A DNA stretch of 64,000 bases from Chitinophaga pinensis (GCA_945861665.1 CAMAVS010000007.1:7277-71276); one strand, 5' to 3'. Shown: positions 7,598 to 27,320, numbered from the stretch's first letter. The notes: generated from the letters alone by a model not told the origin. Program-made: numbers and translations.

Positions 7598-8353
7598 GTG
7601 TATTCTTTACTAAAAAGGGCCATCAAGCTAATTGTTCCAAAAGAACTTCTTCGACAAACAGAGCCTTTTTTAAGAAAAATTTATTCTGTTTTTTATTTCG
7701 GAAACCAAGTTGAGTGTGCTATTTGCGGCAATCATTATTCGAAATTTGTGGTTTTAAAAAATGGTGTTGATACCCTTTGTATTAACTGCGGCAGCTTACC
7801 TCGTAACCGTTTACTGTGGTTGTACATGAACAACGAGTTAAACATCACACACACACACTATTCACTACTCCATTTTTCTCCTGCAAAAAGTATTAAAAGA
7901 AAAATAAATGAACTTAAAAACATAGAGTACACCACAACAGATTATGAAAAAGGCGAAGACAAACAATACGACATTACTGCCATAAATGATGCTGATAATC
8001 GCTATGATTTAATAATTTGCTATCACGTATTCGAACACATTTTGGAAGATTCAAAAGCAATGAAAGAATTGTGTAGAGTATTGAAATCGGGAGGCAAAGC
8101 ATTGCTACAAGTGCCATTAAAAGAGGGTGATACGTATGAAGACATCTCGGTTACTTCACCAACAGAGCGACTTAAACATTTCGGACAAGATGATCACGTA
8201 CGTATCTACGGCAAAAATAATTTCGAGGAACGTTTAAGCAATGCCGGTTTTTCGGTGAAAGCATTTTCTTATGCAACGACTTTTAGTGATGAAATAATTG
8301 ACAGAAATGGATTGAACAAACAAGAATTAATTTTTATCTGTTCAAAAAAATAA
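7598..8353 (+). CDS. class I SAM-dependent methyltransferase with N-terminal Cys4 zinc ribbon
   Basis: 251 aa; CAICGN…CINCGS zinc-ribbon, then DLIICYHVFEHI and LKSGGKALLQVP methyltransferase type-11-like motifs; starts 12 nt after the response regulator stop. Confidence 0.7.
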   Translation: MYSLLKRAIKLIVPKELLRQTEPFLRKIYSVFYFGNQVECAICGNHYSKFVVLKNGVDTLCINCGSLPRNRLLWLYMNNELNITHTHYSLLHFSPAKSIKRKINELKNIEYTTTDYEKGEDKQYDITAINDADNRYDLIICYHVFEHILEDSKAMKELCRVLKSGGKALLQVPLKEGDTYEDISVTSPTERLKHFGQDDHVRIYGKNNFEERLSNAGFSVKAFSYATTFSDEIIDRNGLNKQELIFICSKK

Positions 8354-8685
8354 TCACACTCTTATTATAAATCACAAGCACATCGTCTAAATGTTTCAGG
8401 TTACCTTCCCAACTTACAAATACGTAGTACAAATATTTCTTTCTGTTCTTCCATTGTATTGTCTTGACATATAATTTATGATAATAAGCAGTTATATATG
8501 AAAAATGTTAGAACGTAGTTTTCATATCAAAAGCCTTCAAAACTTCCAAAAATGCTAATTTTGGCTCAATAAGCTGCACTATACGCCAATAATTGAGCAA
8601 TTTTTGCTTTTTTTATTATCAGCAAAAATACGTTACTTTTGTATGCTTTTTTAGAAAGTAATTAAAACTAAGAACCACATACAGA

Positions 8686-11600
8686 ATGTTAGATTTTATA
8701 AATAAATCCATAGGAAAGCTTTTTGGCAATAAATCGCAAAAAGACATCAAAGAAATACAACCCATTGTTGAAAAAATATTGGCTGCAGGTGAGCAATTAA
8801 AAAATATAAGCAACGATGAACTTAGAGCAAAAACAGTAGACTTCAAAAAACGGATAGCCGACTACATTGCGAAAGAAGAAAAAGAGATTGTTGATTTAAG
8901 AGCACTCACGGAAGCAAATCCGGATATGGATGTGCAAGAAAAGGAAAAACATTACAATGCCATTGATCAGAACAAGAAAACAATAAAAACAAAAATACAG
9001 GAAATACTAAACGAAATACTGCCCGAAGCTTTTGCAGTTGTAAAAGAAACAGCAAAACGTTTTAAGGAAAATACGAGCTTAGAAGTAACTGCCACTCAAA
9101 TGGACCGTGATATGGCTGCTGCTCGCGAGAGTGTGAAAATACAAGGTGAAAAAGCCCACTTTAGCAATACCTGGATGGCAGCAGGGAACAAAGTTACCTG
9201 GGATATGGTACACTACGATGTTCAGCTGATTGGCGGTATCGTGTTGCACCAAGGAAAAATATCGGAGATGGCTACAGGGGAAGGAAAAACACTTGTTGGA
9301 ACACTTCCCATTTATTTGAATGCACTTGCCGGAAAAGGAGTGCACATTGTTACCGTAAACACCTACTTATCGAAACGAGATTCGGAATGGAACGGACCAA
9401 TTTTTGAATTTCACGGATTAAAAGTAGATTGTATTGACAAGCACGACCCAAACTCTGACGAAAGAAAAAAAGCCTATTTAGCAGATATTACTTACGGTAC
9501 AAATAACGAATACGGATTCGATTACCTCCGCGATAATATGGCGCGCTCACCAGAAGATTTGGTTCAACGTGAACACAACTATGCTATAGTGGATGAGGTG
9601 GACAGTGTATTGATTGACGATGCTCGTACTCCCCTTATTATATCGGGACCAACTGCGAAAGGTGATACACACGAATTTTTTCAATTAAAACCGCGTGTAG
9701 AAAAATTGGTGAATGCACAACGTAATTATGTAAATACAGTGCTTGCCGATGCTAAAAAAATATTGGCACTAAACGATTCTAAAAAAAATGAAGAAGGTGG
9801 ATTTGCTTTGCTACGCGCCTTTAGAGGATTGCCAAAGAACAAAGCATTGATAAAGTTTTTAAGTGAACCGGGCATAAAAGCACAATTGCAAAAAGTTGAA
9901 AACCACTATATGCAAGACCACGGCAGAGAGATGCCAAAGGTGGATGCTGAATTGTATTTTGTGATTGACGAAAAAAATAATTCCATTGAATTAACTGAAA
10001 AAGGAATAGAGTTAATGTCATCGGGTTCGCCTGAGGATGCTAAGTTTTTTGTGTTGCCCGATGTAGGAAGCGAAATGGTTGAGATTGATAAATCAACTTT
10101 ACCTGCGGAACAAAAATTACAACGCAAAGAGGAGCTAATGAGAAACTTCTCGATAGCATCGGAAAGGGTTCATACAGTTAATCAATTGCTAAAATCATAT
10201 ACCTTGTTTGAGATTGACGTGGATTATGTGGTGATGGAAAACAAAATTAAAATTGTGGATGAGCAAACAGGTCGTATACTCGAAGGCAGAAGATATTCCG
10301 ATGGTTTACACCAAGCCATTGAAGCAAAAGAAAATGTAAAAGTAGAAGCCAGCACACAAACATTTGCTACCGTTACTTTGCAAAATTATTTTAGAATGTA
10401 CAACAAATTGGCGGGTATGACCGGTACTGCCGAAACAGAAGCAGGTGAATTTTGGGATATATACAAATTGGATTGCGTTGTAATACCAACAAACAGAGCC
10501 ATTTCAAGAACCGACAGAGAAGATTTAGTATACAAAACAAAACGTGAAAAATACAATGCGGTTATAGAAAACATTATTGAAGAAGTTGGAAAAGGGCGAC
10601 CGATATTGGTAGGTACAACATCCGTTGAAATATCGGAATTGCTAAGCAGAATGCTTAAACTGAAAGGCATAAAGCACAATGTATTGAATGCAAAATTACA
10701 CCAACGTGAAGCTGAAATTGTTGCAGAAGCAGGTCAAGCAGGTACTGTTACCATTGCCACCAATATGGCCGGTAGGGGAACGGATATAAAATTAGGAGCA
10801 GGAGTAAAAGATGCAGGAGGGCTAGCCATTATTGGTACTGAACGACACGATTCACGAAGGGTTGACAGACAATTAAGAGGGCGTGCCGGTCGTCAGGGTG
10901 ACCCGGGAACATCACAGTTTTTTGTTTCCTTGGAAGATGATTTAATGCGTTTGTTTGGATCGGATAGAATTGCAAAATTAATGGACCGAATGGGTATTGA
11001 AGAAGGTGAAGTAATTCAACATTCAATGATTACCAACTCGATAGAACGTGCACAGAAAAAAGTAGAAGAGAACAATTTTGGAACACGTAAGCGTTTGTTG
11101 GAATACGATGATGTGATGAACTCGCAACGTGAAGTGGTATACAAAAAACGCAGACATGCATTGTTCGGTGAACGTTTGTCGTTGGACATTTCCAATATGC
11201 TGTACGATGTATCGGAAAGTATTTGTACCAATACACAGGAGCAAAAAGATTTTGAAGGATTCGCCTTTGAATTAATAAAAACATTCTCCATTGAAAATCC
11301 GGTTTCGGAAAACGATTTTATGAAATTGCCTACCAACGAACTTACCGAAAGAGTATTTGATGTTGCATACAGACACTACATTAAAAAATCGCAGGAAATG
11401 GGCGAAGCTACTTTCCCTGTGGTGAAAAATGTATACGAGAACAGCGCACATATGTACGAGAATATTATTATTCCTTTTACCGATGGAATAAAAACATTAC
11501 AGGTTCTTTCCAATCTAAAAAAATCGTACGAATCGAAAGGACGTGAAGTATTCACCGCTTTCGAAAAAGGTGTTACACTCTCCATTATTGACGAAGCATG

Positions 11601-14813: not shown

Positions 14814-15239
14814 TTATGCTGTTCTCTCTATTTGGTCTTCATTAATAACATCAACGCGAATATCTTTTACCACAGCACCCATTTCGCAGCCACCCGAAAA
14901 ATTAGCCCCGGGTTCAATAGCTAGTTTATTTGTACTTATATCGCCTTTTAAATTGGAAGAAATTTTTAATGTAAGAATTTCTGAAACAGAAATGTTTCCT
15001 GAAATACTTCCCGAAATATCCGCATTCTGACAAATGATATCGCCTTCAATATTTCCGCTTTGCCCTAACACTAACTTTCCTTTTAATGTAACAGAACCTA
15101 TTACAGTGCCATCAATGCGTAAATTTTCATTTGATTTAATTTCACCTATTATGGTGGTTCCTACTCCTATTTGGTTAATCGATAGCGAACTTATATCGTT
15201 GTTTTTTGCCATTGATAAAGTGTTTTTAAAAATAAACAT
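14814..15239 (-). CDS. bactofilin (polymer-forming cytoskeletal protein, DUF583)
   Basis: 141 aa; repetitive beta-helical I/VxGxI/V motifs (TVIGSVTLKGKLVLGQSGNIEGDIICQNADISGSISGNISV…) typical of bactofilin/CcmA. Confidence 0.75.
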   Translation of the reverse strand: MFIFKNTLSMAKNNDISSLSINQIGVGTTIIGEIKSNENLRIDGTVIGSVTLKGKLVLGQSGNIEGDIICQNADISGSISGNISVSEILTLKISSNLKGDISTNKLAIEPGANFSGGCEMGAVVKDIRVDVINEDQIERTA

Positions 15240-15295
15240 TGTCTATTTATAAGTCATTAAACAAATATACTAAAAAATTTGCATTTTAAAAACCC

Positions 15296-17779
15296 TTATT
15301 TTAGTTGCAATTTCGTAATTTTAATCTCTGTTCTTCGGTTCTGCTTGTGCTCATCCTCAGTACACGTTACGCCATTTTTGCAACGATTCAATATCTTTGA
15401 TTCTCCCATTCCAGCTCCTACAATTCGAATAGGGTCGCCACCCTTTGAAACAATATAATCAATTGCTGTTTTAGCGCGTTTTTGAGAAAGGACTAAATTT
15501 TTATCATCACTGTCACGTGCATCGGTGTGCGAAAAAAGCTCAATGGCAATATTTGGGTTGCTTATTAAGATAGAAACCACTTTATCCAATTGCGCTGAAC
15601 CTTCTGGTTTAATATCCCATTTACCTAAGTCGTAATAAATATTTTCGGCTGCTTGCCCCTCCTTTATACTTACGTTAAGCGATGTGTTTTGTTCATCTAC
15701 CAATGAAAGTTTATTATAATCGGTTGAAAGGCTTTCGAAACGAAAAAAACCATCGGCATCTGTTTTGGTTGATTTTAATACTGCACCCTTTGCTCCTCCC
15801 AGTATAACACTTACGTTTGCAGTTGGGTCATCGGGCATACCGTTAACCAATACTTTACCCAATACAGTATGTTTTTTACTGGTGCTAATTTTAGGATTAG
15901 TTTCGTCAATAATAACAATATAGTTATTATCGGTTGCTAGTTTTTCGAAACGGAAAAATCCATCTGACCCTACCTTTGTTTTTGCAATCACATTACCTTG
16001 TTGGTCGTTTAACACTACTTCAACACCTTCTCCTGCCTGGTTAAGTTCATCACCTATCATAACCTTACCAATAATCACCACATTTTTTTTAACATTAAGA
16101 GTTACATTTTCCTCATCCATTAAATTAAGTGTATTGAAATCGGTGTTCAGTTTTTCAAATTTAAAAAAACCTTTTTCATCGGCTACTACTTCACGCATTG
16201 CAACACCTTGTTTATTTCTAACAATAATTTTGGCATTTATTCCCGGTTGCCCTTCGTTGTAGTATAATTTACCATACACTTTTGATGCTTTAGCTTTTGT
16301 ATTTAGGCCTGTTTCATCTGCATCCAATAGTATAATATAGCTTTGTTCTGTTGATAGTTTTTCAAAACCAAAAAACCCCAAATTTGTAGTTTTTCCTACT
16401 TTAATAATTTCCCCTTTTTGATTGAGCAATTTTACATTAAAATTGTTTGCTGGATCTAACTCATTTTTCATAAGCTGTCCTGAAATGGACGTAATTTTTA
16501 TGTCTGCAACTTTAGATTTAAAACGATAAATATCATCACTACCCTTTCCACCTAATCTGTTTGAGGAAAAATATCCTTTCTTATCATCATCAGTAAACAT
16601 GATTCCAAAATCGTCAGTAGAAGAATTTATAGGCGTTTGTAAATTTGTTACCGATGTCCACGTATTGTCAATATTACGTGCAGAAAATATATCTAATCCT
16701 CCAATTCCGATATGGCCGTTTGAAGAAAAATAGAGTGTTCCTGTGGAGCTGTAAAATGGATAGCATTCATCTGCATCAGTATTTATTTCAGAACCTAAAT
16801 TTTCGGATTTCCCCCAAGTTGTTCCTTCTCTTTTACAAACATATAAATCTTTTCCTCCATATCCACCAGGCATATCTGAAGTGAAGAATAACAATTGTCC
16901 ATCAGTTGACAAAGCTGGGTGAGCACATGAATAATCATCACTATTAAAAGACAACAGCGTTACATCCTTCCAACCTGATGTTGTGGCTTCAATAGATTTA
17001 GCAGAATATATTTTAGGTCGAAAAACAGCTTCCTGACCTTTCTTTTGGGATGTATTTGTTTTATCAACACGGGTAAAAAACATTTCTTTAAAGTCGGCAC
17101 TAAAGGTGCAAGGTCCATTATGGTATTCTGTGTTTACTCGACTTGGGAATGAGCGCCCTTCTTCAAAGAAGGTGTTGTTTTTTTTAGTTTTTAATTCGCT
17201 ATAGAATAACGCTAAATAAGGCTTATCGGTCCAGCCATACGTAGTGTTGTTAAGCAAATCTTTTTCTCGTTCTGATACAAATGCTATTCCGGTTTTATAC
17301 ATAATAGGGCAAAAGTCGGCATTTTCCGTATTTAACTCCCCTACGTTAGAAACATCGTATTCTTGTGGCTTTTGGGACCACACTTTTGTCATTACACATG
17401 ACATAATAAATGCTTCTGTTCGCTTGTTGGGTGTTACTTCTTTAGAATACAACGTAAATTGCTGTTTTGCTTCTTCTAATTTATTGTTATTCTTAAGTGC
17501 TTCGCCAAAGTAAAGATGATTTACAGGAGCAACATCTTGCTGCTGAAACAGTTTAGCATAGTACCTTTCAGACTCTTGGTAATTGTTGGTTAAACGATAG
17601 CAATTTGCAACTTTTTCAATGGCTTCTTTGTTATTCTTTTTAACCTTTTTCAAGTACAAAGGAATTGCTTTTGAGTAGTAATAATCGTTGTATAATTTAT
17701 TTGCTTTTTTATTTTGCGCAATGACACTACTTCCTAAAATTAGAAGCAATGCAAACAAAAATATTTTCTTCAGTTTCAT
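15296..17779 (-). CDS. OmpA family protein: N-terminal TPR, TolB-like WD40/beta-propeller repeats, five CarboxypepD_reg-like repeats, C-terminal OmpA peptidoglycan-binding domain
   Basis: 827 aa; signal peptide; repeated …DGFFRFEKL… modules; C-terminus …SHTDARDSD…LSQKRAKTA…NRRTEIKI is OmpA_C signature. Confidence 0.85.
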   Translation of the reverse strand: MKLKKIFLFALLLILGSSVIAQNKKANKLYNDYYYSKAIPLYLKKVKKNNKEAIEKVANCYRLTNNYQESERYYAKLFQQQDVAPVNHLYFGEALKNNNKLEEAKQQFTLYSKEVTPNKRTEAFIMSCVMTKVWSQKPQEYDVSNVGELNTENADFCPIMYKTGIAFVSEREKDLLNNTTYGWTDKPYLALFYSELKTKKNNTFFEEGRSFPSRVNTEYHNGPCTFSADFKEMFFTRVDKTNTSQKKGQEAVFRPKIYSAKSIEATTSGWKDVTLLSFNSDDYSCAHPALSTDGQLLFFTSDMPGGYGGKDLYVCKREGTTWGKSENLGSEINTDADECYPFYSSTGTLYFSSNGHIGIGGLDIFSARNIDNTWTSVTNLQTPINSSTDDFGIMFTDDDKKGYFSSNRLGGKGSDDIYRFKSKVADIKITSISGQLMKNELDPANNFNVKLLNQKGEIIKVGKTTNLGFFGFEKLSTEQSYIILLDADETGLNTKAKASKVYGKLYYNEGQPGINAKIIVRNKQGVAMREVVADEKGFFKFEKLNTDFNTLNLMDEENVTLNVKKNVVIIGKVMIGDELNQAGEGVEVVLNDQQGNVIAKTKVGSDGFFRFEKLATDNNYIVIIDETNPKISTSKKHTVLGKVLVNGMPDDPTANVSVILGGAKGAVLKSTKTDADGFFRFESLSTDYNKLSLVDEQNTSLNVSIKEGQAAENIYYDLGKWDIKPEGSAQLDKVVSILISNPNIAIELFSHTDARDSDDKNLVLSQKRAKTAIDYIVSKGGDPIRIVGAGMGESKILNRCKNGVTCTEDEHKQNRRTEIKITKLQLK

Positions 17780-17784
17780 TTCAA

Positions 17785-18726
17785 TTAAAAATAACGCGGT
17801 GAAAGGGTTTTGTCCTTTGTAATATCCAAATCAAAACCAATAAATAATTCATGTGAGCCATTACTTACTGTTTTCAACTTATTCATTTGGTAATCGTACG
17901 CATAGCCTAAACGCAACTTTCTAGTTGGATTAATTTCAAAATTAAAAACCAATCCGTTATTACTACGTATGCCAAGTCCAAACCAAAAATTTCCGCTGAA
18001 TAAAAAGCTGGCGTTCAAATCAACACTTCCGGGAGCATTTTTAACAGTTTTAATAACCATTGAAGGCTTAAACGTTACTGCATCACTAAAGCGAAAAGCT
18101 TTCCCTACGGTTCCTATAAAGTGTCGCGACAAAGAGGCCGTTGCACCACTAAAGCCGTTACTGGCAGTGTAATTGTCTTCATCAAGATGCGATATAGCTC
18201 CGCCAATGTAATATGAATTGGTATAATAATACATGCCGAAATCGTATGTGCTTACTATTTTTTGTGCTTGTGATGAACTGTTGTAAATATCTGTAGCGTC
18301 CTTGTAATCAATTTCATTCCACTTAAAACGATAGCTATATACCCCAGCTCTTATTCCAAATGCAAGTTTCCCGCTTTTAAGTTTAATTCTATAAGCAAAA
18401 GAACCAAGAACTCCGGCTGTACTTTTAGGACCAATTTCGTCTGTAAGTATGTGGAATCCAATTCCCAATTTTTGATTTTTTAGTGGAGTATGTACACTTA
18501 ATGTATTTGTTTTTGGTGCCCCAGGGATACCAACCCACTGATTCCTATGCAATGCAACAATACTAATAGACTCACGACTTCCGGCATAAGCAGGATTTAG
18601 AACTAAAGAGTTAAACATATATTGTGAGTATTGTGCATCTTGTTGAGCAAAGGAGACACCCGCCAAAAAAAACAAGCAAATAACCCCAATTTTATTTTTC
18701 ATTTGATATACTGTTTTTCTATTCAT
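17785..18726 (-). CDS. type IX secretion system membrane protein, PorP/SprF family
   Basis: 313 aa; N-terminal AQQDAQYSQYMFNSLVLNPAYAGSRE… is the family hallmark; beta-barrel-like Gly/Tyr-rich C-terminus ending …RYF. Confidence 0.85.
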   Translation of the reverse strand: MNRKTVYQMKNKIGVICLFFLAGVSFAQQDAQYSQYMFNSLVLNPAYAGSRESISIVALHRNQWVGIPGAPKTNTLSVHTPLKNQKLGIGFHILTDEIGPKSTAGVLGSFAYRIKLKSGKLAFGIRAGVYSYRFKWNEIDYKDATDIYNSSSQAQKIVSTYDFGMYYYTNSYYIGGAISHLDEDNYTASNGFSGATASLSRHFIGTVGKAFRFSDAVTFKPSMVIKTVKNAPGSVDLNASFLFSGNFWFGLGIRSNNGLVFNFEINPTRKLRLGYAYDYQMNKLKTVSNGSHELFIGFDLDITKDKTLSPRYF

Positions 18727-18736
18727 TTTTCAAAAC

Positions 18737-19513
18737 CTATTTTGTAATCTCAACCCAACCTTTATAGATATTGTTTGGTACTTTGTCGGTTAAAACTATA
18801 ATATAAAAGTATGTTCCATCGGGAAGTGGCTGACTGTTTGTTTGGTAATTTCCTTCAAATACCACTTTCACATTATCATATTTTGGAGCACTGTAAACAA
18901 TGGTTCCGTACCTATTAAAAATGGAAACCCCGTTGTTAGGAAACAAATCAATTCCATCAATAATCCATTTATCATTTATCCCATCACCGTTTGGAGAGAA
19001 TCCTTTGTAAATTGTTAAATCGCATTCCCCTGCAAAACTCAACTCAATGATTACAGTGTCTACAGCTATCTCAGCCGTTTCTGCGTCCGTTACTGTTATA
19101 ATATAAGATCCCTCTTGCAACCCAAAAATGGAATCTTTATTGGACGAAATAGGTGACCATTCGTAGCTAAAATTACCCGAACCTCCACTAGCATAAACCT
19201 TTGCCCAACCATTATTGGCTGTTTTACAACGGGAGTTTGAGAACTTAATGGAATCAATATGTATTGCCAATTTGCCTGATGGTTGATGAAAACCTTGAGT
19301 AATATAATTCGTCCCATTTTGTATGGTAGTTACGCAAGGTTCGCCTACAGACCAAGCAATGTTCATTGTCCCCAAATCATAACCTGCATTTCCTACATTG
19401 GAAATTAAAAAAGGTGTAATGCTAGGGGTTTGCGCAACTAATATAGTACTACCCATCAATAGGAGTATAAACAGTTTGTATTTTGTATTGTTTATCCGTT
19501 TCATTTTAATCAA
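18737..19513 (-). CDS. small T9SS type-B (gliding-motility-associated) C-terminal-domain protein with a single SprB-type repeat
   Basis: 258 aa; signal peptide; CKTANNGWAKVYASGGSGNFSYEWSP…GSYIITVTDAE resembles SprB repeat; C-terminal …YKGFSPNGDGINDKWIIDGIDLFPNNGVSIFNRYGTIVYSA…GWVEITK matches type-B CTD; 10-nt gap to PorP/SprF gene. Confidence 0.8.
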   Translation of the reverse strand: MIKMKRINNTKYKLFILLLMGSTILVAQTPSITPFLISNVGNAGYDLGTMNIAWSVGEPCVTTIQNGTNYITQGFHQPSGKLAIHIDSIKFSNSRCKTANNGWAKVYASGGSGNFSYEWSPISSNKDSIFGLQEGSYIITVTDAETAEIAVDTVIIELSFAGECDLTIYKGFSPNGDGINDKWIIDGIDLFPNNGVSIFNRYGTIVYSAPKYDNVKVVFEGNYQTNSQPLPDGTYFYIIVLTDKVPNNIYKGWVEITK

Positions 19514-22289
19514 CTTTTGTAATGGTATACTTTATTTTTGCACCATAAATTGCTGTGTGAGAGAGAGGATTGGTATACGTAACGGCACTATACCGTATCC
19601 AATATTTGTAAACTCCTGTTTCAATAATTGGGTTAGTTATGGAATTTGTTGTTTGGGTAGTTTGCCCAGCATTAAAAACTGCTGAAGTTGAAACTGTTGC
19701 CATAGTTATTGTAGTTCCTCCGGCCGTTGCGCGTACAAGTTCAGCGGTATTGCCAAATAATATAGTATTGTCAGAAAAAGTTGCTTCAAAATCAGTTACA
19801 GTAGCTGAATCTGGCAAATAAATTGGTGCCGATAAATAAACAATTTGACCGGCATTTCCAGTAACTGATTTCGCCCAAACCCATAATTGAGAAGGGTCAC
19901 TAGTAATATCAAAGATATCATTGTTGGCACCCGCCTCAACAAATGCAATACAAGGAACGGAAATAGCTTTTGCTTTTATATTCCTAAACCTGTAATCACT
20001 TACAGCATCAATTTTAATGTTACCGCCAACAACATCAAGTTTTGCCGATGGGGCAATGATGCCAATACCAACATTGCCATCAAAGTACGCTGCAGAACTG
20101 GAGGCTCCTTGTTTTGCATACAATGCTGTCCAAAGGCCTGCCCGATTAGCAAGTACAGCAAACTCTGTATTCAACAACGGTCCACCTGCTGGATAGAGGG
20201 CGCGAATAGCACTATTTCCAGAAGACCCTGCCGTGGAGGATACATCCAACATATGGCCATTAGGGTTTGTAGTCCCAATACCCACCCTTCCATTATTATC
20301 AATTATCATTTTATTAAGAACCCCATTTAGTCCGTGAAAAGAAATTGTATCGGCATTTAATTTTATTCTTTGTGTGGTTTCTAAAATAATATGTCCTCCC
20401 GAATTTTGGTTTTCCACCATCAAACGATTCATAGGGGAAGGAACAAAAGATAATTTTGCTGCCATATTTGAACTTTTTAGTAAAACCGTACTTGGGCTAT
20501 TAACTGTGTTGTAAATTAATACACTGGTACCAAATATATTTGAACCATTAAAACGACCAACCGTTGTATCGCTAACTGTACCAACAACAGACAATGGAGC
20601 TAATGGACTCGTTGTTCCTATACCAACCCTTCCTATACCATTTAAACCAGGAGCGGGACTTATGTGCATTGTAGGGACATTAGAACCCATTCCGAATTGA
20701 ATTGAATTTGGAATGGTATTGCTAAGAGGTAAAATAGCACTAATGCCGCTTCCTATTACACAATTATTTGGAGCACTAGTTATTACATTTACTCCTAAGG
20801 CAATCGCATTATTAGCATTTGAAACAGCATTTGCTCCAATTGCTACAGAGCCTTGGTTATTTGCTTTTGAGAAAAATCCGAAGGAATAAGAAAAAAGTCC
20901 TAATGCTTCGGACCTATAACCAATTGCCATGGAATTTACACCGGTAGCTTTTGTTTTTGAACCAATAGCAATTGAGGCAAGGCCACTTGCGGTTGGAGTA
21001 TTACCTAAAGCAATTGAAGAGTCGCCACTAGCTGTAGGATTGTATCCAAGCGCTGCTGAATACCCCCCTAAAGATGCATCGTTCCATTGCGTACCATTAA
21101 CAGCTCCTGCTCTAAATGCTGATTTTTTGGGATACCAAATCATCCAACTTCCTGCATTAGCATCCCATGGTGTTCCAGCTCCATGTGTTCCTCTAAACCA
21201 AATCCCATCATTGCCTGAAACTTGTAAATTAGGTACAACACTAACATTACCCCCTATATGAATTTTATCGGTTATGTTATTTGGGTATAATGTTCCGCTT
21301 ATGTTCTTCCATAAACTTGTTCCTCCGGGTAAATCAGAAGCTTTTATTGAGTCTGCTATAAAATAACTTCCATTTGCTCTTAAATACTTCCCGGCAACAG
21401 CAGTTCCATTATACTTATACCCTAATGTTGTGTTTGCTCCACCAACAACATCTAACTGCTGAACAGGTGCATTATTATTAATTCCAACTTTGTCACCAAG
21501 GTTTGCAGGATAAATATTCGTTCCAGATCTAGTCCAGGGGGGAAACGCAATTGCTGCAGGTAAATCAGCTAATTTAATAGAGTCTGCGATAAAATAAGAA
21601 CCATTTCCTCGTAAGTATTTTCCGGTAACTGCCGAATTTTTATATTTATAACCATTCAATGTGTTTACATAACTTCCTGCACTTATTTTGCTATTTGACA
21701 TAATGGAGTCTGTAGCATGAATGTCGCCAGTTACATCTAATTTGGAGGTAGGGCTATTACCAATACCAACATTTTGGTTAATGTCAATCCGCATTGCTTC
21801 GAGGCTGTTTGTTTTAAAAATTAAAGGATTTAAGTTAATTGTCCCTAAATAATCATTCGCTTCTGTAACATTTCCACTTCTATTCCAACCTAAGAAAGAA
21901 GCGTAACTGAAAAGGGAAAATGGAACTGCTTCGAATTGCGTTTTGGGCCCCATAGTCATATAAGAAACTCCTCCTGCAGTGTCAACAGACACCTCTAGGT
22001 CTATCCCGAAATCCCAAGGGAGAACTGCAAATTGCAACGGAGCTTGACTCCCAAGAACATATGTAAAAAGTCCAAACTTATTTGTTGTAGTATTTATAGT
22101 TTCGTTATAGACAGATAGCCCTGAAACGTGATTAAATAATTCAAACTTTACTCCAATATTTTGAGCATCGAAACCCTTTCCATTCGCATCTCTTACCACT
22201 CCTTGATAATTGAAACCATTAAACGGAAATTGAGCAAAACTTGCAATTGAAATTGCAGAAAAAAGAAGTACTAATAATTTAAATTTCAT
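19506..22289 (-). CDS. large secreted fibre-like protein (phage tail-fibre-like Gly/Thr-rich beta repeats), no T9SS CTD
   Basis: 927 aa; signal peptide; N-terminal domain paralogous to 22294-23589 product; duplicated ~35-aa segment (…NSAVTGKYLRGNGSYFIADSIKLADLP… / …GTAVAGKYLRANGSYFIADSIKASDLP…); recurring VGIGTTxPxxKLDVxG motifs; 8-nt overlap with downstream type-B CTD gene. Confidence 0.6.
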   Translation of the reverse strand: MKFKLLVLLFSAISIASFAQFPFNGFNYQGVVRDANGKGFDAQNIGVKFELFNHVSGLSVYNETINTTTNKFGLFTYVLGSQAPLQFAVLPWDFGIDLEVSVDTAGGVSYMTMGPKTQFEAVPFSLFSYASFLGWNRSGNVTEANDYLGTINLNPLIFKTNSLEAMRIDINQNVGIGNSPTSKLDVTGDIHATDSIMSNSKISAGSYVNTLNGYKYKNSAVTGKYLRGNGSYFIADSIKLADLPAAIAFPPWTRSGTNIYPANLGDKVGINNNAPVQQLDVVGGANTTLGYKYNGTAVAGKYLRANGSYFIADSIKASDLPGGTSLWKNISGTLYPNNITDKIHIGGNVSVVPNLQVSGNDGIWFRGTHGAGTPWDANAGSWMIWYPKKSAFRAGAVNGTQWNDASLGGYSAALGYNPTASGDSSIALGNTPTASGLASIAIGSKTKATGVNSMAIGYRSEALGLFSYSFGFFSKANNQGSVAIGANAVSNANNAIALGVNVITSAPNNCVIGSGISAILPLSNTIPNSIQFGMGSNVPTMHISPAPGLNGIGRVGIGTTSPLAPLSVVGTVSDTTVGRFNGSNIFGTSVLIYNTVNSPSTVLLKSSNMAAKLSFVPSPMNRLMVENQNSGGHIILETTQRIKLNADTISFHGLNGVLNKMIIDNNGRVGIGTTNPNGHMLDVSSTAGSSGNSAIRALYPAGGPLLNTEFAVLANRAGLWTALYAKQGASSSAAYFDGNVGIGIIAPSAKLDVVGGNIKIDAVSDYRFRNIKAKAISVPCIAFVEAGANNDIFDITSDPSQLWVWAKSVTGNAGQIVYLSAPIYLPDSATVTDFEATFSDNTILFGNTAELVRATAGGTTITMATVSTSAVFNAGQTTQTTNSITNPIIETGVYKYWIRYSAVTYTNPLSHTAIYGAKIKYTITKVD

Positions 22290-22293
22290 GTTT

Positions 22294-23589
22294 TTATAGT
22301 TCGTAAGTGATTAGAATTGTAAAGGTTTTACTATATATTGCGCTTGAATTTGATATAGTATTTTGAACATCAATGGTTCCTGTGGCATTATTTATATAAT
22401 AGTTGTATTCAGTAGCTCCAATGTTATTTGAAGGTGGGATAAATAAATTTCCAGTGGCTACAAGAATACTAACAGATAATATTTTGCTAGATGTTACTCC
22501 GTGAAATATCGTTACAGTGCCACCTGAAACGCCAGAAGTGGTTCCTGTAATTTTTTTTGTTTGAATAGCCGGAGCACCGTTACCCAGACTTGTATAATTA
22601 TACATTGTTGCATTTCCTGCTGCATCTATAGACATTCTATTTGCGCCACTTGTTCCTAAATAAAGTGGAGTTGCATCATAATTTAATATGCTCACAGCAA
22701 TATTACTGTAATCTAACCGGAAATTAGCACCACCAGTTCTGCTCAATTTTATTTGCGGGTTGTTTACGTCAAACACATCTAATTTCGCAGTAGGTGTACT
22801 TGTTCCTATTCCAACATTTAAACCATTATTAAACACATTGCTATTATTTACTACCCAAATAGATCCATTCCAATAAGGTGTATTTCCCGCAATCATACCA
22901 TTTGGCAATAACCCCGTTATACCTTGAACTCCTTGAATTCCTTGAAGGCCCTGAAACCCTTGCAATCCCTGGATCCCTAGTGGGCCTTGTATCCCTTGTA
23001 TTCCCTGTATTCCCTGTGGACCCTGAGGTCCAACAGGGCCAACCAAACTAACACCCTGAGGCCAAGAGCCAACCGTTTTTGGTCCGTAAAATGTATTGGT
23101 TAATACATCAATGTAAAAATCGCCATCATTACCTGTACCCTGTAAAGGTGATATGTTACCACTTATAATTGTATTTGCATTAACGCCACCAGCCGAAGCT
23201 GCATATAAGGCATATGGTACCGACTGAAAAGGCTGAGCTGCGCCTAAAGGAACAAAATTAGTCCCACCTGCAATTGTATCAATATATACTTGTATAGAAT
23301 GTATCCCTGACGACCAATTGATTTGTTGGAAAGACGGATTGTTCTGGCTTCCTAACACTACGGTAAATAACCCAAAAGCATTTGTTGTAATAAGTCCTAC
23401 ATGCTGCTCTGTAAATTCAATCGCATTGGCATTATCCAAAATCTCAAATTTGATACTTATAGACTGAGCAGACAGCGCTTTCTTGTTTGCATCTCTGGCA
23501 ATTCCTTGATAATTTATTCCTTGGGGTGGCGCTTGCGCTAATACAAAAGTTGAAAATGCAAAAAACAATAATGTTAAATTCTGTTTCAT
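22294..23589 (-). CDS. collagen-like (GXY triple-helix repeat) secreted protein, no T9SS CTD
   Basis: 431 aa; signal peptide; N-terminal domain paralogous to the 927-aa protein (…[13 protein letters not shown]…[11 protein letters not shown]…); uninterrupted G-X-Y tract [45 protein letters not shown]; 4-nt gap to next gene. Confidence 0.65.
22915..23050. repeat. 9-bp-periodic collagen-like (GXY)n coding repeat
   Basis: cttgaactccttgaattccttgaaggccctgaaacccttgcaatccctgg… on + strand = (GIQ/GLQ)n codons on minus strand. Confidence 0.7.
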
Positions 23590-23656
23590 ATAAATTATCT
23601 CGTTATTTCTACCCAGCCCTTTTTAGAATTGGTATTGTTATTTTTAGTTATAAGTA

Positions 23657-23983
23657 TTAATTCATAAAGACTATTACATATTTACTAATAGATCCTCCAT
23701 TTTCTGTAGCTTTACGATTGGAATATGAAAGTGTTTGAGTTGCTTCAAATGAGCACCACAAATCTTTGGATTGAGCATGTTTTACTCCCTGTGCTGCAAA
23801 AGCATTATTGCCAATTTCAACAAGGAGGAAGGTTGGTGCTCCGAAAAGTTCCGGTATAGGGAGATTCATTAAACCCTTTTCACTGCAAGGGCTGCCACTG
23901 GGTGAAGGAACAGCAAATGCGCTTAAAAACGCAATACATAAGACACTTAACAGGGCAAAAGAAAAGTACTGCATTTTTCTCAT
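23657..23983 (-). CDS. small secreted hypothetical protein
   Basis: 108 aa; signal peptide; two Cys; 67 nt upstream of collagen-like gene, same strand. Confidence 0.35.
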   Translation of the reverse strand: MRKMQYFSFALLSVLCIAFLSAFAVPSPSGSPCSEKGLMNLPIPELFGAPTFLLVEIGNNAFAAQGVKHAQSKDLWCSFEATQTLSYSNRKATENGGSISKYVIVFMN

Positions 23984-24051: not shown

Positions 24052-25851
24052 CTAATTGACTTTAAACCCTATAACTAAAATGTCGTCTACTTGCTCTTGT
24101 GCTCCTCTCCATTTTTCAATAATTGAGTCGAGGGTTGATTTTTGTTCATCAACCGATAATTGGTGCAATTCCATCAGCGTTCTGCGAAACTGATTCACCA
24201 TAAATTTTTTTCCTTTAGGTCCGCCAAACTGGGAAGCATAACCATCCGAGAAAACGTAAACACAGTCTCCTGTTTGAAGAGGAATAACGTGGTTGGTATA
24301 TGGCTTTGTATCTTCTCCTACATAATACCCTATAGGGAATTTATTCGCTTTGATTTCTATTAGTGTTCCATCTCTAATAATCAACAGTGGATTAAAAGCC
24401 CCTGCATATTGCAATTCCTTCTTTTTGTAATCAATAGTACACAGCGTAATGTCCATTCCATCTTTAGAAGTTGACCCTTTGTATGATTGGTGAAGTGTTT
24501 CATTCACACCAATATTTAAGGCATCCAAAATTTTTGCAGGCTCTGTAATTCCGCTATTATTTACAACATACTTAAGAATGTTAAAGCCTACTATACTCAT
24601 AAATGCTCCGGGAACACCGTGGCCAGTACAATCAACTGCTGCAAAAAGTGTTTTTCCATCCTTTTCTTCCATCCAATAAAAATCACCACTCACAATATCT
24701 TTGGGTTTATAAAGTATAAAAGAATTTGGCAGTAATTTTCTAACCAAATTCCGAGGAGGAAGAATAGCTTCCTGAATGCGTTTAGCATAAAAAATACTAT
24801 CGGTAACTTGTTTATAAAGCACCTCTAAAATTTCGGTTTTAGACTGGATTTCTTCTTTTTGTTTCACAACCTCCTCTGTTCTTTCAATCACCTTTGCTTC
24901 TAATAATTTTTCATTTTCAGCCAAATCGGTACGCATTTTTAATAATGCTTGACCAAGTTCATCTTCACCACTTAATGGATTATATTCTGACCCAAAATTT
25001 CCGGAACCAACTTGGTTTGCGAATTCTGTAGTGCTCCTCATTCCGTCCACTAAAAAATTTAAAGCTGTACCCATTTCTCCGATTTCATCGTTTCTGTTTT
25101 GAATTTTTTCAGTGGGCAATACCCCTTTACCCATTCCAAGCAAAATTCTCTTAAAGGAGTTAATTGGTTGGACGATTGAAATAACAGTAAAAAATGCAAT
25201 TAATATGCCTCCAACTGGAAGGGCAATGGTAAGAATCATTACTGCTAATTGTAAAAAATTTAGTGACTTGTTCATTTCATTACTCACGCTGTTTGCGAAA
25301 TTTTTTTGAATATCAATGATTTTTTCGAGGTTTGCTAATGTTCTTGTGGTGGATGAAAAAATGGGGCCCTCAGTTACCGATTCGCGCGATTGGAAAACAG
25401 CCAATGTATTATTTTCGCTATAATCTTCCATTTTATCGAGCTGCAACATCAGATCGTGGTACATGCTAAACAAAGAATCAATGGATAAAAAAACAGAATC
25501 GATTTGCATACGTTCAGCGTCTTTCCACTTATACGATATTCTTTGAAGTTGCTTTTTTTGTACAGGAAACAAATCGTCCATTAACAAGCGAAGTTCTTTT
25601 TTCTCTGCTTTATCGCTGCCACTGGCAACCCAAATCCAATTGTTGATAAGCCCCTTAGACTTCACTAACAACAATTTTAATTGCTGTAATGACGTTACAG
25701 ACGGAGAGAAAATATCGTTTATGTCATCGTTTATCTGTTTGCTTTTTTTGCTCGTTTGTTGGGTGAGAAGAAAAGCTCCTAACGTAAGAAATATCAAAAC
25801 ACCAAACCCAAGTCCGATTTTTCTCCCAATGCTGAATTTAAACTTTTTCAA
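24052..25851 (-). CDS. membrane sensor PP2C-type Ser/Thr phosphatase (periplasmic sensor - TM - HAMP - coiled coil - SpoIIE/PP2C)
   Basis: 599 aa; two TM segments flanking ~170-aa extracytoplasmic region, HAMP-like segment, C-terminal …DIVSGDFYWMEEKDGKTLFAAVDCTGHGVPGAFMSIVG… PP2C/SpoIIE catalytic motifs. Confidence 0.8.
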   Translation of the reverse strand: MKKFKFSIGRKIGLGFGVLIFLTLGAFLLTQQTSKKSKQINDDINDIFSPSVTSLQQLKLLLVKSKGLINNWIWVASGSDKAEKKELRLLMDDLFPVQKKQLQRISYKWKDAERMQIDSVFLSIDSLFSMYHDLMLQLDKMEDYSENNTLAVFQSRESVTEGPIFSSTTRTLANLEKIIDIQKNFANSVSNEMNKSLNFLQLAVMILTIALPVGGILIAFFTVISIVQPINSFKRILLGMGKGVLPTEKIQNRNDEIGEMGTALNFLVDGMRSTTEFANQVGSGNFGSEYNPLSGEDELGQALLKMRTDLAENEKLLEAKVIERTEEVVKQKEEIQSKTEILEVLYKQVTDSIFYAKRIQEAILPPRNLVRKLLPNSFILYKPKDIVSGDFYWMEEKDGKTLFAAVDCTGHGVPGAFMSIVGFNILKYVVNNSGITEPAKILDALNIGVNETLHQSYKGSTSKDGMDITLCTIDYKKKELQYAGAFNPLLIIRDGTLIEIKANKFPIGYYVGEDTKPYTNHVIPLQTGDCVYVFSDGYASQFGGPKGKKFMVNQFRRTLMELHQLSVDEQKSTLDSIIEKWRGAQEQVDDILVIGFKVN

Positions 25852-25880
25852 TTGTTCTCGTTGATAGAATTAATGCTAAA

Positions 25881-26792
25881 TTATTTTTTCTCTAATGCAA
25901 CCAACCTATTGTTGTACTCCTGCTTCTTTTCGTCATCCAATAGGGCTTGATAAATTTGCCTTAAACCAACTAATGTTTCACGTCTATTTGGTCTTAAATC
26001 GTCTGCTTTTAACATTAGAGGTAAACTATTTTTAAATATTTCAGATGTTTTATCCAATATATCTGTCATTATCAAAATATCCTCGTCAACAGGCATAGAA
26101 TTAATCATCTCAGCACCTTGATTATAATACAATATAGCTTGGTTAAAATTCGCATCGTAATTGTTTGAATCAATTGACAATACTTTATAATAATACTCTA
26201 TCGCTTGTTGGAAATGCTCCTCTAACACTTTTTTCAATACATCGTTTGGATTTTGAGTTATATTTTTTTCATATATGCCTTTATGAACTGAGGCTAAGGC
26301 ATTGTAAAACTCAATATCCTTTGTCTTAAAATCTGTGGATGGGTTAACGTATAATTGACATTGTTTATAATTATCCATCGAGATGATTGCATACGCAATA
26401 TTTGTGGAGTCTAAGAACTTTGCTGCATAATTGTTAAAGTAAACAGAAAGGTTATATATGCTCTTATTATTCTCTATACGATTTTCGGAGGAGGTGTCAA
26501 TTCTATTTGATTCTAAGAATGAATTGTAAGCCACTTCGCCAAGCCATTTAATATTTTTTGGTTCAGGGAAACTTTTTCGGAATACTTGACTGTAAACATA
26601 TCCTCTAATATACCAGGCCCTGCCATCATTGAAATAATCTGGCATAAGTACCGTAGAGTCGATTGATTGCATTGCTCTCGTTAGATCACCTTTTTCAACA
26701 TACGTAATCGCAATAGACACTTTATCTACCTGAGCGTTGGCAGTAAACACCACCAAGAACAGTATCGCAAATATGTATTTATTAAATCTCAT
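25881..26792 (-). CDS. TPR-like repeat secreted protein
   Basis: 303 aa; signal peptide; helical-repeat Tyr/Asn/Ala composition (…AILYYNQGAEM…YYKVLSIDSNNYDANFNQA…); 6-nt gap to DUF4154 gene. Confidence 0.4.
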   Translation of the reverse strand: MRFNKYIFAILFLVVFTANAQVDKVSIAITYVEKGDLTRAMQSIDSTVLMPDYFNDGRAWYIRGYVYSQVFRKSFPEPKNIKWLGEVAYNSFLESNRIDTSSENRIENNKSIYNLSVYFNNYAAKFLDSTNIAYAIISMDNYKQCQLYVNPSTDFKTKDIEFYNALASVHKGIYEKNITQNPNDVLKKVLEEHFQQAIEYYYKVLSIDSNNYDANFNQAILYYNQGAEMINSMPVDEDILIMTDILDKTSEIFKNSLPLMLKADDLRPNRRETLVGLRQIYQALLDDEKKQEYNNRLVALEKK

Positions 26793-26798
26793 TTCTAC

Positions 26799-27320
26799 TT
26801 ATTCAACTTTTATACTCAATGATTCCAAATTTGAACTCACTTTTAAACCATACTTTTCGGCATTCGCCTTATTTAGCTCAAATTTTTGTTTATTGTCCTT
26901 TACTACAAAATTTATTGCTGCACCTTGTTTAGCTAAGCCTGGTTTTTCTGTAACAAGCAACGTGTTACTTCCTTTGATCTTCAATAAAACATCTTTCATT
27001 GCATTCTTATAATCTTCTGAAACGTATAGAATATGACATTTTGAAATAGCCCCTGTATTATTAAACGTTTTTATTTCAAAAATCTGACTAGCTGCCTTTT
27101 TAGTTAGAGCCATATTGTTAAGTTCATTAATGATGGCAGAAGTTCCAAGAATTCCAATCACAAAATTGCCTTGCTTTTGGGAACCTGGCCACTCAATATA
27201 TTTTGTGAAATTATATACAAAAACAGCCTTAACTTTTGAGGTCGTATCATCTGCCCCTCTCGTAACTGTGGTGATAAAAATAATAACAAAAGAAATAACT
27301 ATTCTTAAGACTTTATTCAT
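26799..27320 (-). CDS. YfiR/DUF4154-like periplasmic protein
   Basis: 173 aa; signal peptide; …VFVYNFTKYIEWPG…GNFVIGILG…KCHILYVSE… resembles DUF4154 (YfiR family) core. Confidence 0.5.
   Translation of the reverse strand: MNKVLRIVISFVIIFITTVTRGADDTTSKVKAVFVYNFTKYIEWPGSQKQGNFVIGILGTSAIINELNNMALTKKAASQIFEIKTFNNTGAISKCHILYVSEDYKNAMKDVLLKIKGSNTLLVTEKPGLAKQGAAINFVVKDNKQKFELNKANAEKYGLKVSSNLESLSIKVE

What the first reader, a model, noticed from the sequence alone, without database searches (positions are those of the whole stretch)
14814..23983. Tight operon joining a T9SS type-B module (mini-SprB + PorP/SprF + TPR/TolB/OmpA) to two CTD-less fibre proteins and a bactofilin: candidate undescribed surface-filament system
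Seven co-directional minus-strand genes sit with gaps or overlaps of -8 to +10 nt between the core five. In transcription order they are a small secreted protein, a collagen-like protein, a tail-fibre-like protein, a 258-aa type-B CTD protein with one SprB repeat, a PorP/SprF protein, a TPR-WD40-CarboxypepD_reg-OmpA protein, and a bactofilin 56 nt later. Type-B CTD cargo is normally a giant adhesin encoded next to its cognate PorP/SprF. Here the type-B CTD protein is tiny. The large fibre-like proteins, one with a collagen triple helix and one with a phage-tail-fibre-like beta structure, carry no CTD at all but sit immediately upstream. One hypothesis is that the mini-SprB/PorP pair acts as an anchor or adaptor for a composite fibre. 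The OmpA protein and the bactofilin would then provide peptidoglycan and cytoskeletal coupling. I cannot match this combination to any described gliding or T9SS apparatus.
Basis: partly seen in the sequence, partly recalled or inferred. Interest (0 to 1): 0.75.

Follow-up and report, generated by a model that had tools for sequence, protein, structure and literature searches.

The report
T9SS adaptor anchoring CTD-less surface fibres
Two trimeric fibre proteins with no secretion tag sit beside a small tagged protein whose only other part is a conserved 55-residue "head". [quoted passage not shown]

Summary
The gene cluster is real and tightly packed. Its right half is a known arrangement: a cargo protein with a type-B C-terminal secretion domain (CTD), a PorP/SprF shuttle and a PorE-like wall tether. 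This is the static-anchoring module described in F. johnsoniae and P. gingivalis.

- The 108-aa "small secreted protein" is a deletion remnant of a large type-B cargo gene.
- The bactofilin is conserved only in close relatives and has its own promoter-like motif, so it is probably unrelated.
- The fibres are relatives of the Bdellovibrio MAT (mosaic adhesive trimer) fibres, sharing the same N-terminal domain, here called the N-dom.

The new result concerns the first ~55 mature residues of the mini protein, the "head", which has no Pfam or NCBIfam model.
- The head defines a family of about 7,900 clusters with the layout signal peptide + head + T9SS CTD. Among top hits, 92% carry a CTD, mostly type A.
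- These genes lie next to N-dom fibre genes on the same strand: 39 of 39 head ORFs in fibre-seeded loci, and 52 of 80 head-seeded loci.
- No N-dom protein carries a CTD.

Best reading (about 0.6): the head docks the fibre N-dom, so the CTD is supplied by a separate protein. All evidence is computational.

The parts
22294..23589 (-). Fibre 1 (431 aa). Layout: Sec signal peptide; MAT-like N-dom (aa ~19-131, nt 23197-23535); GDFY motif; 14 collagen Gly-X-Y triplets (aa 184-226); C-terminal tip. No T9SS CTD.
   Evidence: Collagen PF01391; NF053851 Bdello_MAT_N at E 7.7e-13 and 48.6 bits, cut-off 60. (AF2: N-dom pLDDT 84-95). (tip aa 321-429 resembles phrog_3018). (more than 3,500 homologues).
19506..22289 (-). 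Fibre 2 (927 aa). Layout: signal peptide; the same N-dom (aa ~20-129, nt 21903-22232); repeated NVGIG..KLDV stalk motifs; YadA-type trimeric head (aa ~396-552, nt 20634-21104); C-terminal tip. No CTD and no YadA membrane anchor.
   Evidence: (PDB BpaC 7o23 at 6e-11, YadA 1p9h at 5e-10). No YadA_anchor or CTD hit at E<=0.01.
18737..19513 (-). Adaptor ('mini-SprB', 258 aa). Layout: signal peptide; conserved head (aa ~25-80, nt 19274-19441; motif ..SWSVGE..ITQGFHQP); one SprB Ig-like repeat (aa 91-122); type-B CTD (aa 167-256, nt 18746-19015).
17785..18726 (-). PorP/SprF-family outer-membrane beta-barrel. It is the presumed cognate shuttle and anchor for the type-B CTD of the adaptor.
   Evidence: PF11751 at 251 bits; TIGR03519 at 264 bits. 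It follows the head/type-B gene in every locus with enough downstream flank.
15296..17779 (-). PorE-like protein (827 aa) with TPR, PD40 beta-propeller, CarboxypepD_reg repeats and an OmpA_C peptidoglycan-binding domain. It is the presumed tether from PorP to the cell wall.
   Evidence: NF052230 T9SS_PorE at 352 bits and NF053607 at 416 bits, both below cut-off. Synteny. Literature: PMC9143113, PMC12618676.
23590..23983 (-). Pseudogene remnant of a ~960-aa type-B CTD cargo gene. The 5' ~330 nt are fused to the last ~70 nt (encoding ..KGWVEITR*) by an internal deletion of ~2.5 kb.
   Evidence: 52% identity to residues 1-121 of the L001 964-aa protein. (the DNA aligns to both ends of the L001 gene).
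24052..27320 (-). Conserved upstream trio: DUF4154/YfiR-like (26799-27320), TPR protein (25881-26792) and HAMP-SpoIIE/PP2C phosphatase (24052-25851). This is a candidate sensor or regulator of the type-B fibre cluster. Its role is inferred from synteny only.
   Evidence: domains. (same trio upstream in L001, L003, L016, L092, L093, L113, L163).

Best explanation

The fibres. The two fibre proteins are Sec-exported, trimeric, mosaic adhesin-like fibres related to the Bdellovibrio MAT fibres. They have no T9SS signal of their own.

The adaptor. The 258-aa protein supplies the signal from a separate polypeptide. Its ~55-residue N-terminal head binds the conserved fibre N-dom (inferred). Its type-B CTD is taken through the T9SS translocon and handed to the cognate PorP-like barrel (by analogy with SprB-SprF and PG1035-PorP). 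The PorE-like protein ties that barrel to peptidoglycan through its OmpA_C domain (by analogy with PorE).

The result would be statically anchored fibres with interchangeable tips.

The more common version elsewhere in the phylum has the same head fused to a type-A CTD. PorU would exchange that CTD for anionic LPS, leaving an LPS-linked docking peg.

What is shown: gene anatomy, domain identities, and reciprocal, order-independent gene linkage across the phylum.

What is inferred: physical head-N-dom binding, and whether the fibre crosses the outer membrane together with the adaptor (piggyback) or docks afterwards.
For: 1. Fibre-seeded scan of 185,579 species genomes. All 39 head ORFs in 38 of 82 loci are on the same strand as an N-dom fibre ORF, and 36 of 39 lie within ~100 nt of it. 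None lies elsewhere in ~1.0 Mb of flanks. Of 42 loci with both flanks visible, 26 have the pair.
2. Reciprocal head-seeded metagenome scan. 52 of 80 loci have an adjacent same-strand N-dom ORF. At least 5 more show a fibre cut off by the contig end.
3. Gene order varies but adjacency persists. The head gene is usually upstream with type-A CTDs, and downstream in 18 of 19 type-B loci (upstream in L058). The CTD type also swaps while the head stays.
4. CTD content of head proteins: 19 type A and 9 type B of 30; 108 type A and 4 type B of 122 representatives.
5. None of 168 N-dom ORFs and none of 113 N-dom proteins has a CTD. 64 other CTD-bearing ORFs in the same loci lack the head.
6. Minimal adaptors of 160-190 aa are only signal peptide + head + CTD, so binding is the only function left for them.
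7. In AF2 the head is strongly conserved yet poorly predicted alone (pLDDT 42-60), while the rest of the protein scores above 90. This fits folding on a partner.
8. Head distances track N-dom distances (r = 0.34) better than CTD distances do (r = 0.25). The partial r is 0.29 and the permutation p about 0.001.
9. The type-B version is always followed by PorP, and by a PorE-like gene in nearly all loci with enough downstream flank. The exception is L073 (Pedobacter sp. Bi126), where none was found within ~6.8 kb.
10. [quoted passage not shown]
11. The surface partner of the MAT N-domain is explicitly unknown (PMC10769870).
Against: - There is no direct evidence of head-N-dom binding. Co-folding could not be run.
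- 16 of 42 informative fibre loci have no adjacent head gene.
- About 8 kinds of head gene are orphans, and some heads sit on 450-1,400-aa proteins. The head may therefore have a more general role.
- Export of a CTD-less partner by the T9SS has no experimental precedent that I could find.
- Bdellovibrio lacks a T9SS yet displays MAT fibres, so the N-dom does not strictly need this route.
- The mirror-tree signal is modest, and CTD distances are near saturation.
- The literature library lacks most subscription journals.
Confidence: 0.6

Rival explanations
1. The genes are independent neighbours. The mini type-B protein is only a PG1035-like cap or cargo of an ordinary PorP/PorE static module. 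The fibres are unrelated secreted proteins that happen to share an operon of surface proteins.
For: The type-B + PorP-like + PorE-like operon is a standard unit: five such operons in F. johnsoniae (PMC12618676) and a PG1035-PorP-PorE complex (PMC9143113). In relatives a conventional large type-B cargo sits in the same cluster.
Against: The head-fibre linkage persists without PorP or PorE when the CTD is type A, and in either gene order. 119 of 120 mini-family members keep the head. All three independently sampled mini genes have an N-dom fibre immediately upstream.
Confidence: 0.15
2. The head-CTD protein is a secreted assembly or trimerisation chaperone, or a tip or cap factor for the fibres, analogous to phage tail-fibre assembly proteins encoded next to fibre genes. 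It would not be the anchor.
For: It is a small gene immediately adjacent to a fibre gene, as with phage Tfa proteins. The fibres use phage-like modules: collagen, S74 chaperone tips, and a tip resembling phrog_3018. The head is disordered alone.
Against: It always carries a signal peptide and a T9SS CTD that leads to surface attachment. It co-varies with the invariant N-dom, while the tips are interchangeable. Some fibres already carry their own S74 chaperone.
Confidence: 0.12
3. The fibres are prophage, tailocin or contractile-injection-system tail fibres, and the cluster is a mobile-element remnant.
For: Foldseek against BFVD and PHROGs hits tail-fibre and collagen proteins.
Against: Those hits are to the collagen repeat and generic fibre modules. 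The N-dom and head have no PHROG hit. There are only 2 N-dom loci in 2.9 million viral contigs, against at least 586 in species genomes. The fibres have Sec signal peptides. The window is chromosomal, with SecA, PBP1 and ABC-F and no phage genes nearby. GC content is unremarkable.
Confidence: 0.03
4. The full seven-gene apparatus of the first reader: the fibres are coupled through PorP/PorE to peptidoglycan and on to a bactofilin cytoskeleton.
For: The bactofilin is co-directional and only 56 nt downstream. It is also present in L001 and L082.
Against: L001 and L082 are close relatives: L082's head is 96% identical, and L001's adaptor and collagen fibre are 85% and 76% identical. None of the other 17 type-B clusters has a bactofilin. 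L001 has an extra gene between the PorE-like gene and the bactofilin. A TATATTTG (TAnnTTTG) promoter-like motif lies in the spacer. Bactofilins are cytoplasmic and nothing here spans the inner membrane.
Confidence: 0.04

Closest known systems
T9SS type-B cargo / PorP(SprF)-like shuttle / PorE-like tether operons (F. johnsoniae Fjoh_3952-3951-3950; P. gingivalis PG1035-PorP-PorE)
   Same: Same gene triad and order: a type-B CTD protein, then a PorP/SprF-family barrel, then a TPR/beta-propeller/CRD/OmpA_C protein. A small type-B protein of unknown function (PG1035, about 50 kDa) bound to PorP-PorE is a precedent. The presence of a PorE-like gene predicts a static, wall-tethered complex.
   Different: Here the type-B protein is reduced to a conserved head, with or without one Ig repeat. 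It is always preceded by a CTD-less fibre gene. The same head also occurs on type-A CTDs with no PorP or PorE. No described system uses a CTD supplied by a separate protein.
Bdellovibrio bacteriovorus MAT (mosaic adhesive trimer) fibres (Caulton et al. 2024, PMC10769870; NCBIfam NF053851)
   Same: A signal peptide followed directly by a conserved beta-rich N-domain, ~110 aa here against ~130 aa in the MATs. A trimeric stalk. Swappable C-terminal tips, including S74 chaperone-protease tips. 42 of 46 family members hit NF053851 (best E 6.8e-14).
   Different: All scores are below the curated cut-off of 60 bits. The hosts are non-predatory Bacteroidota. Collagen and YadA-head stalk modules are used. 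A candidate partner for the N-domain, the head-CTD protein, is identifiable here, whereas the Bdellovibrio partner is unknown and Bdellovibrio has no T9SS.
Trimeric autotransporter adhesins (YadA/BpaC)
   Same: The 927-aa fibre contains YadA-type head repeats (PF05658; PDB 7o23, 1p9h).
   Different: It has no C-terminal YadA beta-barrel anchor and no type Vc secretion. Anchoring would be at the N-terminus through a separate protein.
Phage tail fibre plus adjacent small assembly/adaptor gene
   Same: A modular trimeric fibre with an invariant N-terminal attachment domain and variable tips, encoded next to a small partner gene.
   Different: The genes are cellular and Sec/T9SS-exported. The N-dom is almost absent from viral contigs (2 loci in IMG/VR).

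Membership tests
T9SS type-B cargo + PorP-like + PorE-like static anchoring module | C-terminal type-B CTD (PF13585 / TIGR04131) on the cargo | tested here: met
   258-aa protein: CHU_C at 85 bits (cut-off 27); TIGR04131 at 53 bits (cut-off 35)
T9SS type-B cargo + PorP-like + PorE-like static anchoring module | Adjacent PorP/SprF-family outer-membrane protein gene | tested here: met
   PF11751 at 251 bits and TIGR03519 at 264 bits, 10 nt downstream
T9SS type-B cargo + PorP-like + PorE-like static anchoring module | PorE-like protein with TPR, beta-propeller, CRD and OmpA_C domains next to PorP | tested here: met
   PD40, CarboxypepD_reg and OmpA all above Pfam cut-offs, plus a weak TPR. NF052230 T9SS_PorE scores 352 bits, below its 600-bit equivalog cut-off. 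It is therefore a PorE-like paralogue, not necessarily the core PorE
T9SS type-B cargo + PorP-like + PorE-like static anchoring module | Secretion and anchoring of the cargo depend on the cognate PorP-like protein | not testable with these tools
   Needs genetics or biochemistry
MAT (mosaic adhesive trimer) fibres | Conserved beta-rich N-domain immediately after the signal peptide, matching NF053851 | tested here: inconclusive
   Significant E-values (7.7e-13 and 1.9e-06; 42 of 46 relatives hit), but all are below the curated 60-bit cut-off. AF2 models the domain as a confident beta domain. I read it as homologous but not a curated member
MAT (mosaic adhesive trimer) fibres | Trimeric fibre with interchangeable C-terminal tips, including S74 chaperone-protease tips | tested here: met
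   Collagen triple-helix and YadA-head modules imply trimers. Tips across the family include Peptidase_S74, DUF7151, Lcl_C and CBM5/12
MAT (mosaic adhesive trimer) fibres | Surface display and a role in target-cell recognition | not testable with these tools
   No expression or localisation data
Trimeric autotransporter adhesin (type Vc) | C-terminal YadA-like membrane anchor (PF03895) | tested here: not met
   Only YadA_head was found in the 927-aa protein at E<=0.01. NF033478 matches the head region only
T9SS cargo (for the two fibres themselves) | Own C-terminal type-A, type-B or type-C CTD | tested here: not met
   No CTD in either fibre, nor in any of 168 N-dom ORFs or 113 N-dom proteins
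Bactofilin as part of the system | Conserved linkage of the bactofilin gene with the cluster | tested here: not met
   Present only in the window, L001 and L082 among 20 type-B clusters

The most novel reading that the evidence does not exclude
The T9SS can export and mount proteins that have no CTD, by using a dedicated ~55-residue head module that carries the CTD on a separate protein. Trimeric MAT-like fibres would fold in the periplasm, bind three head-CTD adaptors, and be carried through SprA. They would end up either LPS-linked (type A) or PorP/PorE-tethered (type B). The head family (about 7,900 clusters) would then be a general docking system for an interchangeable set of surface fibres in Bacteroidota. 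It would also identify the long-sought kind of partner for the MAT N-terminal domain.
Probability: 0.3. Interest if true: 0.85.

Novelty: new variant of a known kind. Interest (0 to 1): 0.72.

Why it matters
T9SS substrates are currently defined by having their own C-terminal domain. A CTD supplied by a separate adaptor would enlarge the predicted secretome of Bacteroidota, because hundreds to thousands of large adhesin-like fibres are at present invisible to CTD-based prediction.

It would also explain how these bacteria can swap adhesive tips without touching the anchoring machinery. And it gives a concrete, testable candidate answer to an open question from the Bdellovibrio MAT work: what the invariant N-terminal domain binds.

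The 55-residue head with a CTD could also serve as a compact surface-display handle.

Tried and rejected
- Bactofilin as a component was rejected on lack of conservation, an intervening gene in L001 and a promoter-like motif.
- The 108-aa ORF as a secreted component was rejected. It is a deletion remnant.
- Trimeric autotransporter was rejected because there is no anchor domain.
- Prophage or tailocin origin was rejected.
- A natural head + N-dom fusion (Rosetta stone) was searched for among 488 proteins and 12,421 ORFs. None was found.
- PDB sequence searches with the N-dom profile and the mini protein, and a Foldseek search of the fibre model against the PDB, gave no significant match.
- The search for homologous proteins with the 54-aa head profile returned only short fragments of 50-95 aa and was uninformative. 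The full HMMER scan of representatives was used instead.
- The first N-dom alignment was too divergent for the search for related loci. A narrower alignment worked.
- The afdb50 fold library was unavailable, so I could not retrieve Bdellovibrio MAT models for a direct structural comparison.
- Five literature searches for trimeric fibres, collagen-like or tail-fibre proteins, piggybacking or CTD-less cargo in the T9SS, or for the MAT N-domain's partner, found no description of this pairing.
- The source organism could not be named. The exact-match clusters carry no taxon.

Full report
**Observation**

The seven co-directional minus-strand ORFs are present exactly as described.
- Gaps among the five core genes are 4 nt, -8 nt, 10 nt and 5 nt. 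The -8 nt overlap becomes a +1 nt gap if the ATG at 19504 is used.
- The 108-aa ORF lies 67 nt before the core genes, and the bactofilin lies 56 nt after them.

Pfam and NCBIfam confirm most of the domain calls.
- Bactofilin.
- An 827-aa PorE-like protein with PD40, CarboxypepD_reg and OmpA. It scores 352 bits against T9SS_PorE and 416 bits against CHU_0125_OmpA, both below the equivalog cut-offs.
- A PorP/SprF protein (251 bits).
- A 258-aa protein with one SprB repeat and a type-B CTD.
- A 927-aa protein with YadA-head repeats.
- A 431-aa collagen-repeat protein.
- Neither fibre has any CTD.
- The two fibres share an N-terminal domain, here called the N-dom: 42% identity, E 2e-25.

**Corrections to the anatomy**

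*The 108-aa ORF is a pseudogene remnant.* Its product aligns to residues 1-121 of a 964-aa type-B CTD protein that occupies the same position in the closest relative, L001. At the DNA level, the window matches the 5' ~330 nt and the last ~70 nt of that gene. The last ~70 nt still encode the ..KGWVEITR* end of a type-B CTD. About 2.5 kb was therefore deleted.

*The bactofilin is not part of the conserved unit.* Among 20 type-B clusters it occurs only in the window and two close relatives: L082, whose head is 96% identical, and L001, whose adaptor and collagen fibre are 85% and 76% identical. In L001 another gene separates it from the PorE-like gene. Its 56-nt upstream spacer contains TATATTTG. 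This fits the Bacteroidota -7 consensus TAnnTTTG, which I cite from my own knowledge.

**What is already known**

The type-B cargo + PorP-like + PorE-like triad is a described arrangement.
- PorE-PorP-PG1035 form a complex in P. gingivalis, and SprB binds SprF. PorE-like neighbours are proposed to mark non-mobile, wall-tethered cargo (PMC9143113).
- F. johnsoniae has five such operons, and Fjoh_3952 behaves as a static cargo (PMC12618676).

A small type-B protein next to PorP and PorE is therefore not anomalous in itself.

**The fibres**

The N-dom hits NCBIfam NF053851, the N-terminal domain of the Bdellovibrio mosaic adhesive trimer (MAT) fibres.
- The 431-aa protein scores E 7.7e-13. The 927-aa protein scores E 1.9e-06.
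- 42 of 46 relatives hit the model, with a best E of 6.8e-14. All are below the 60-bit naming cut-off.

Like the MATs, the family is mosaic. More than 3,500 homologues combine the N-dom with collagen and with varied tips: Peptidase_S74, DUF7151, Lcl_C and CBM5/12.

Structural and context evidence:
- AF2 models the N-dom as a confident beta domain, pLDDT 84-95. It has no significant PDB match.
- The YadA head implies a trimer, but there is no autotransporter anchor.
- The family is cellular, not viral. There are at least 586 matches in species genomes against 2 in 2.9 million viral contigs.
- The window is ordinary chromosome, with SecA, PBP1 and ABC-F.
- The MAT paper states that the partner of the N-domain on the cell surface is unknown (PMC10769870).

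**The new finding: the head module**

I profiled the part of the 258-aa protein that precedes its CTD. The first ~55 mature residues carry the consensus ..P.V..S.GG....LSWT.GE......LTQGFQQP. These residues recur in proteins encoded directly beside N-dom fibre genes in many loci that have no PorP at all.

*Fibre-seeded loci.* In 82 loci, all 39 head ORFs are on the fibre's strand, and 36 of 39 lie within ~100 nt of it. None occurs elsewhere in ~1.0 Mb of flanks. Of 42 loci with both flanks visible, 26 have the pair.

*Head proteins.* Of 30 scanned, 19 end in a type-A CTD, 9 in a type-B CTD, 1 in a dockerin and 1 in a GCX_COOH domain. No Pfam or NCBIfam model covers the head.

*Reciprocal scan.* I seeded a metagenome scan with the head alone.
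- 52 of 80 loci have an adjacent same-strand N-dom ORF.
- Several of the rest are truncated fibres.
- About eight kinds are true orphans.

*Family size.* A full HMMER scan of 1.84 billion representatives finds 7,921 head-bearing clusters (2,381 at E<=1e-10). They are typically 155-175 aa, with the head at residues ~19-68. Of 122 scanned, 108 carry a type-A CTD and 4 a type-B CTD.

*Fibres and other cargo.*
- None of 168 N-dom ORFs or 113 N-dom proteins has a CTD.
- 64 other CTD-bearing ORFs in the same loci lack the head.
- No head + N-dom fusion was found.

**The type-B version**

The type-B cluster is a conserved unit in distant lineages: DUF4154/YfiR-like, TPR, HAMP-SpoIIE phosphatase, an optional large type-B cargo, one or more fibres, the head/type-B mini protein, PorP, and the PorE-like protein.

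Three independently sampled mini-family genes each have an N-dom fibre immediately upstream. 119 of 120 mini-family proteins keep the head.

**Mechanism**

The minimal adaptors consist only of signal peptide, head and CTD. Their only plausible activity is therefore to bind something and be placed on the surface by the T9SS.

The fibres have a conserved N-terminal domain but no lipobox, barrel or CTD. The simplest model is that the head docks the N-dom.
- With a type-A CTD, PorU would replace the CTD with anionic LPS, leaving an LPS-linked peg.
- With a type-B CTD, as in this window, the adaptor would be held by its PorP-like barrel. The PorE-like OmpA domain would tie that barrel to peptidoglycan.

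Two weaker observations fit this model.
- AF2 predicts the conserved head poorly on its own (pLDDT 42-60), while the Ig repeat and CTD score above 90. This suggests that the head folds on a partner.
- Across 52 non-redundant type-A pairs, head distances correlate with N-dom distances (r = 0.34). That is stronger than the correlation of CTD distances with N-dom distances (r = 0.25). The partial r is 0.29 and the permutation p about 0.001.

Whether the fibre is co-translocated with the adaptor (piggyback) or docks after crossing by another route is not resolved.

**Caveats**

- Everything is inferred from sequence and gene context.
- A sizeable minority of fibre loci lack an adjacent head gene.
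- Some heads are orphans or sit on large proteins.
- Bdellovibrio displays MAT fibres without a T9SS.
- The searchable literature is incomplete.

**Verdict**

The parts about the bactofilin and the small secreted protein are rejected.

The T9SS half is known, and the fibres are new members of a MAT-like kind. The head-CTD/fibre partnership appears undescribed. I rate it a new variant of a known kind, with interest of about 0.7.

Noticed in passing
window 24052-27320 (minus strand); also L001, L003, L016, L092, L093, L113, L163: A trio of DUF4154/YfiR-like, TPR and HAMP-SpoIIE (SiaA-like PP2C phosphatase) genes lies directly upstream of the type-B fibre cluster in at least 8 distant loci. It may be a dedicated envelope-sensing regulator of the fibres. 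No STAS or anti-sigma partner was seen nearby.
   Followed up: partly
window 23590-23983: The 108-aa ORF is the fused 5' and 3' ends of a ~960-aa type-B CTD cargo gene that is intact in L001. This lineage has lost the conventional large cargo of the PorP module but kept the fibres and the adaptor.
   Followed up: yes
window 15240-15295 and 14814-15239: The spacer before the bactofilin gene contains TATATTTG, which matches the Bacteroidota -7 promoter consensus TAnnTTTG. The bactofilin is probably transcribed on its own.
   Followed up: partly
window 41417-50928: Three T9SS type-A cargo genes lie here: 41417-43891; 45435-47219, a pectate-lyase-like beta-helix; and 47419-50928, a PKD/SBBP protein. 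A second SpoIIE-type phosphatase gene (43898-45364) abuts one of them. A SpoIIE phosphatase next to T9SS cargo thus occurs twice in this window.
   Followed up: no
P0318, P0319; P0381, P0434, P0370, P0387, P0397: Some head proteins carry two tandem heads before a type-A CTD. Others have a single head on passengers of 450-1,400 aa. The head may therefore also attach other cargo to the fibres, or have a wider docking role.
   Followed up: no
L109, L140, L147 (head ORFs at ~5900-6450): Orphan head + type-A CTD genes recur downstream of a peptidase gene and a transporter-like gene, with no fibre within 5 kb. L108, L116 and L132 carry a ~900-aa head protein in another conserved context.
   Followed up: partly
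L166 (IMG/VR UViG_2721755344_000003) 7422-9371: One of the only two 'viral' contigs with an N-dom fibre also has a head + type-A CTD gene immediately upstream of it. It is probably host DNA in a prophage call.
   Followed up: partly
L036 and L043: N-dom fibre loci are assigned to a Saccharibacteria MAG and a Bifidobacteriaceae MAG. L043 carries a head + type-A CTD gene, and L036 carries head and type-B CTD ORFs. These are probably mis-binned Bacteroidota contigs.
   Followed up: no
L021 (3709-11026) and L033 (4652-20324): Tandem arrays of 4 to 6 N-dom fibre genes with no adjacent head gene. These look like tip-diversified fibre sets that would need an adaptor encoded elsewhere.
   Followed up: no
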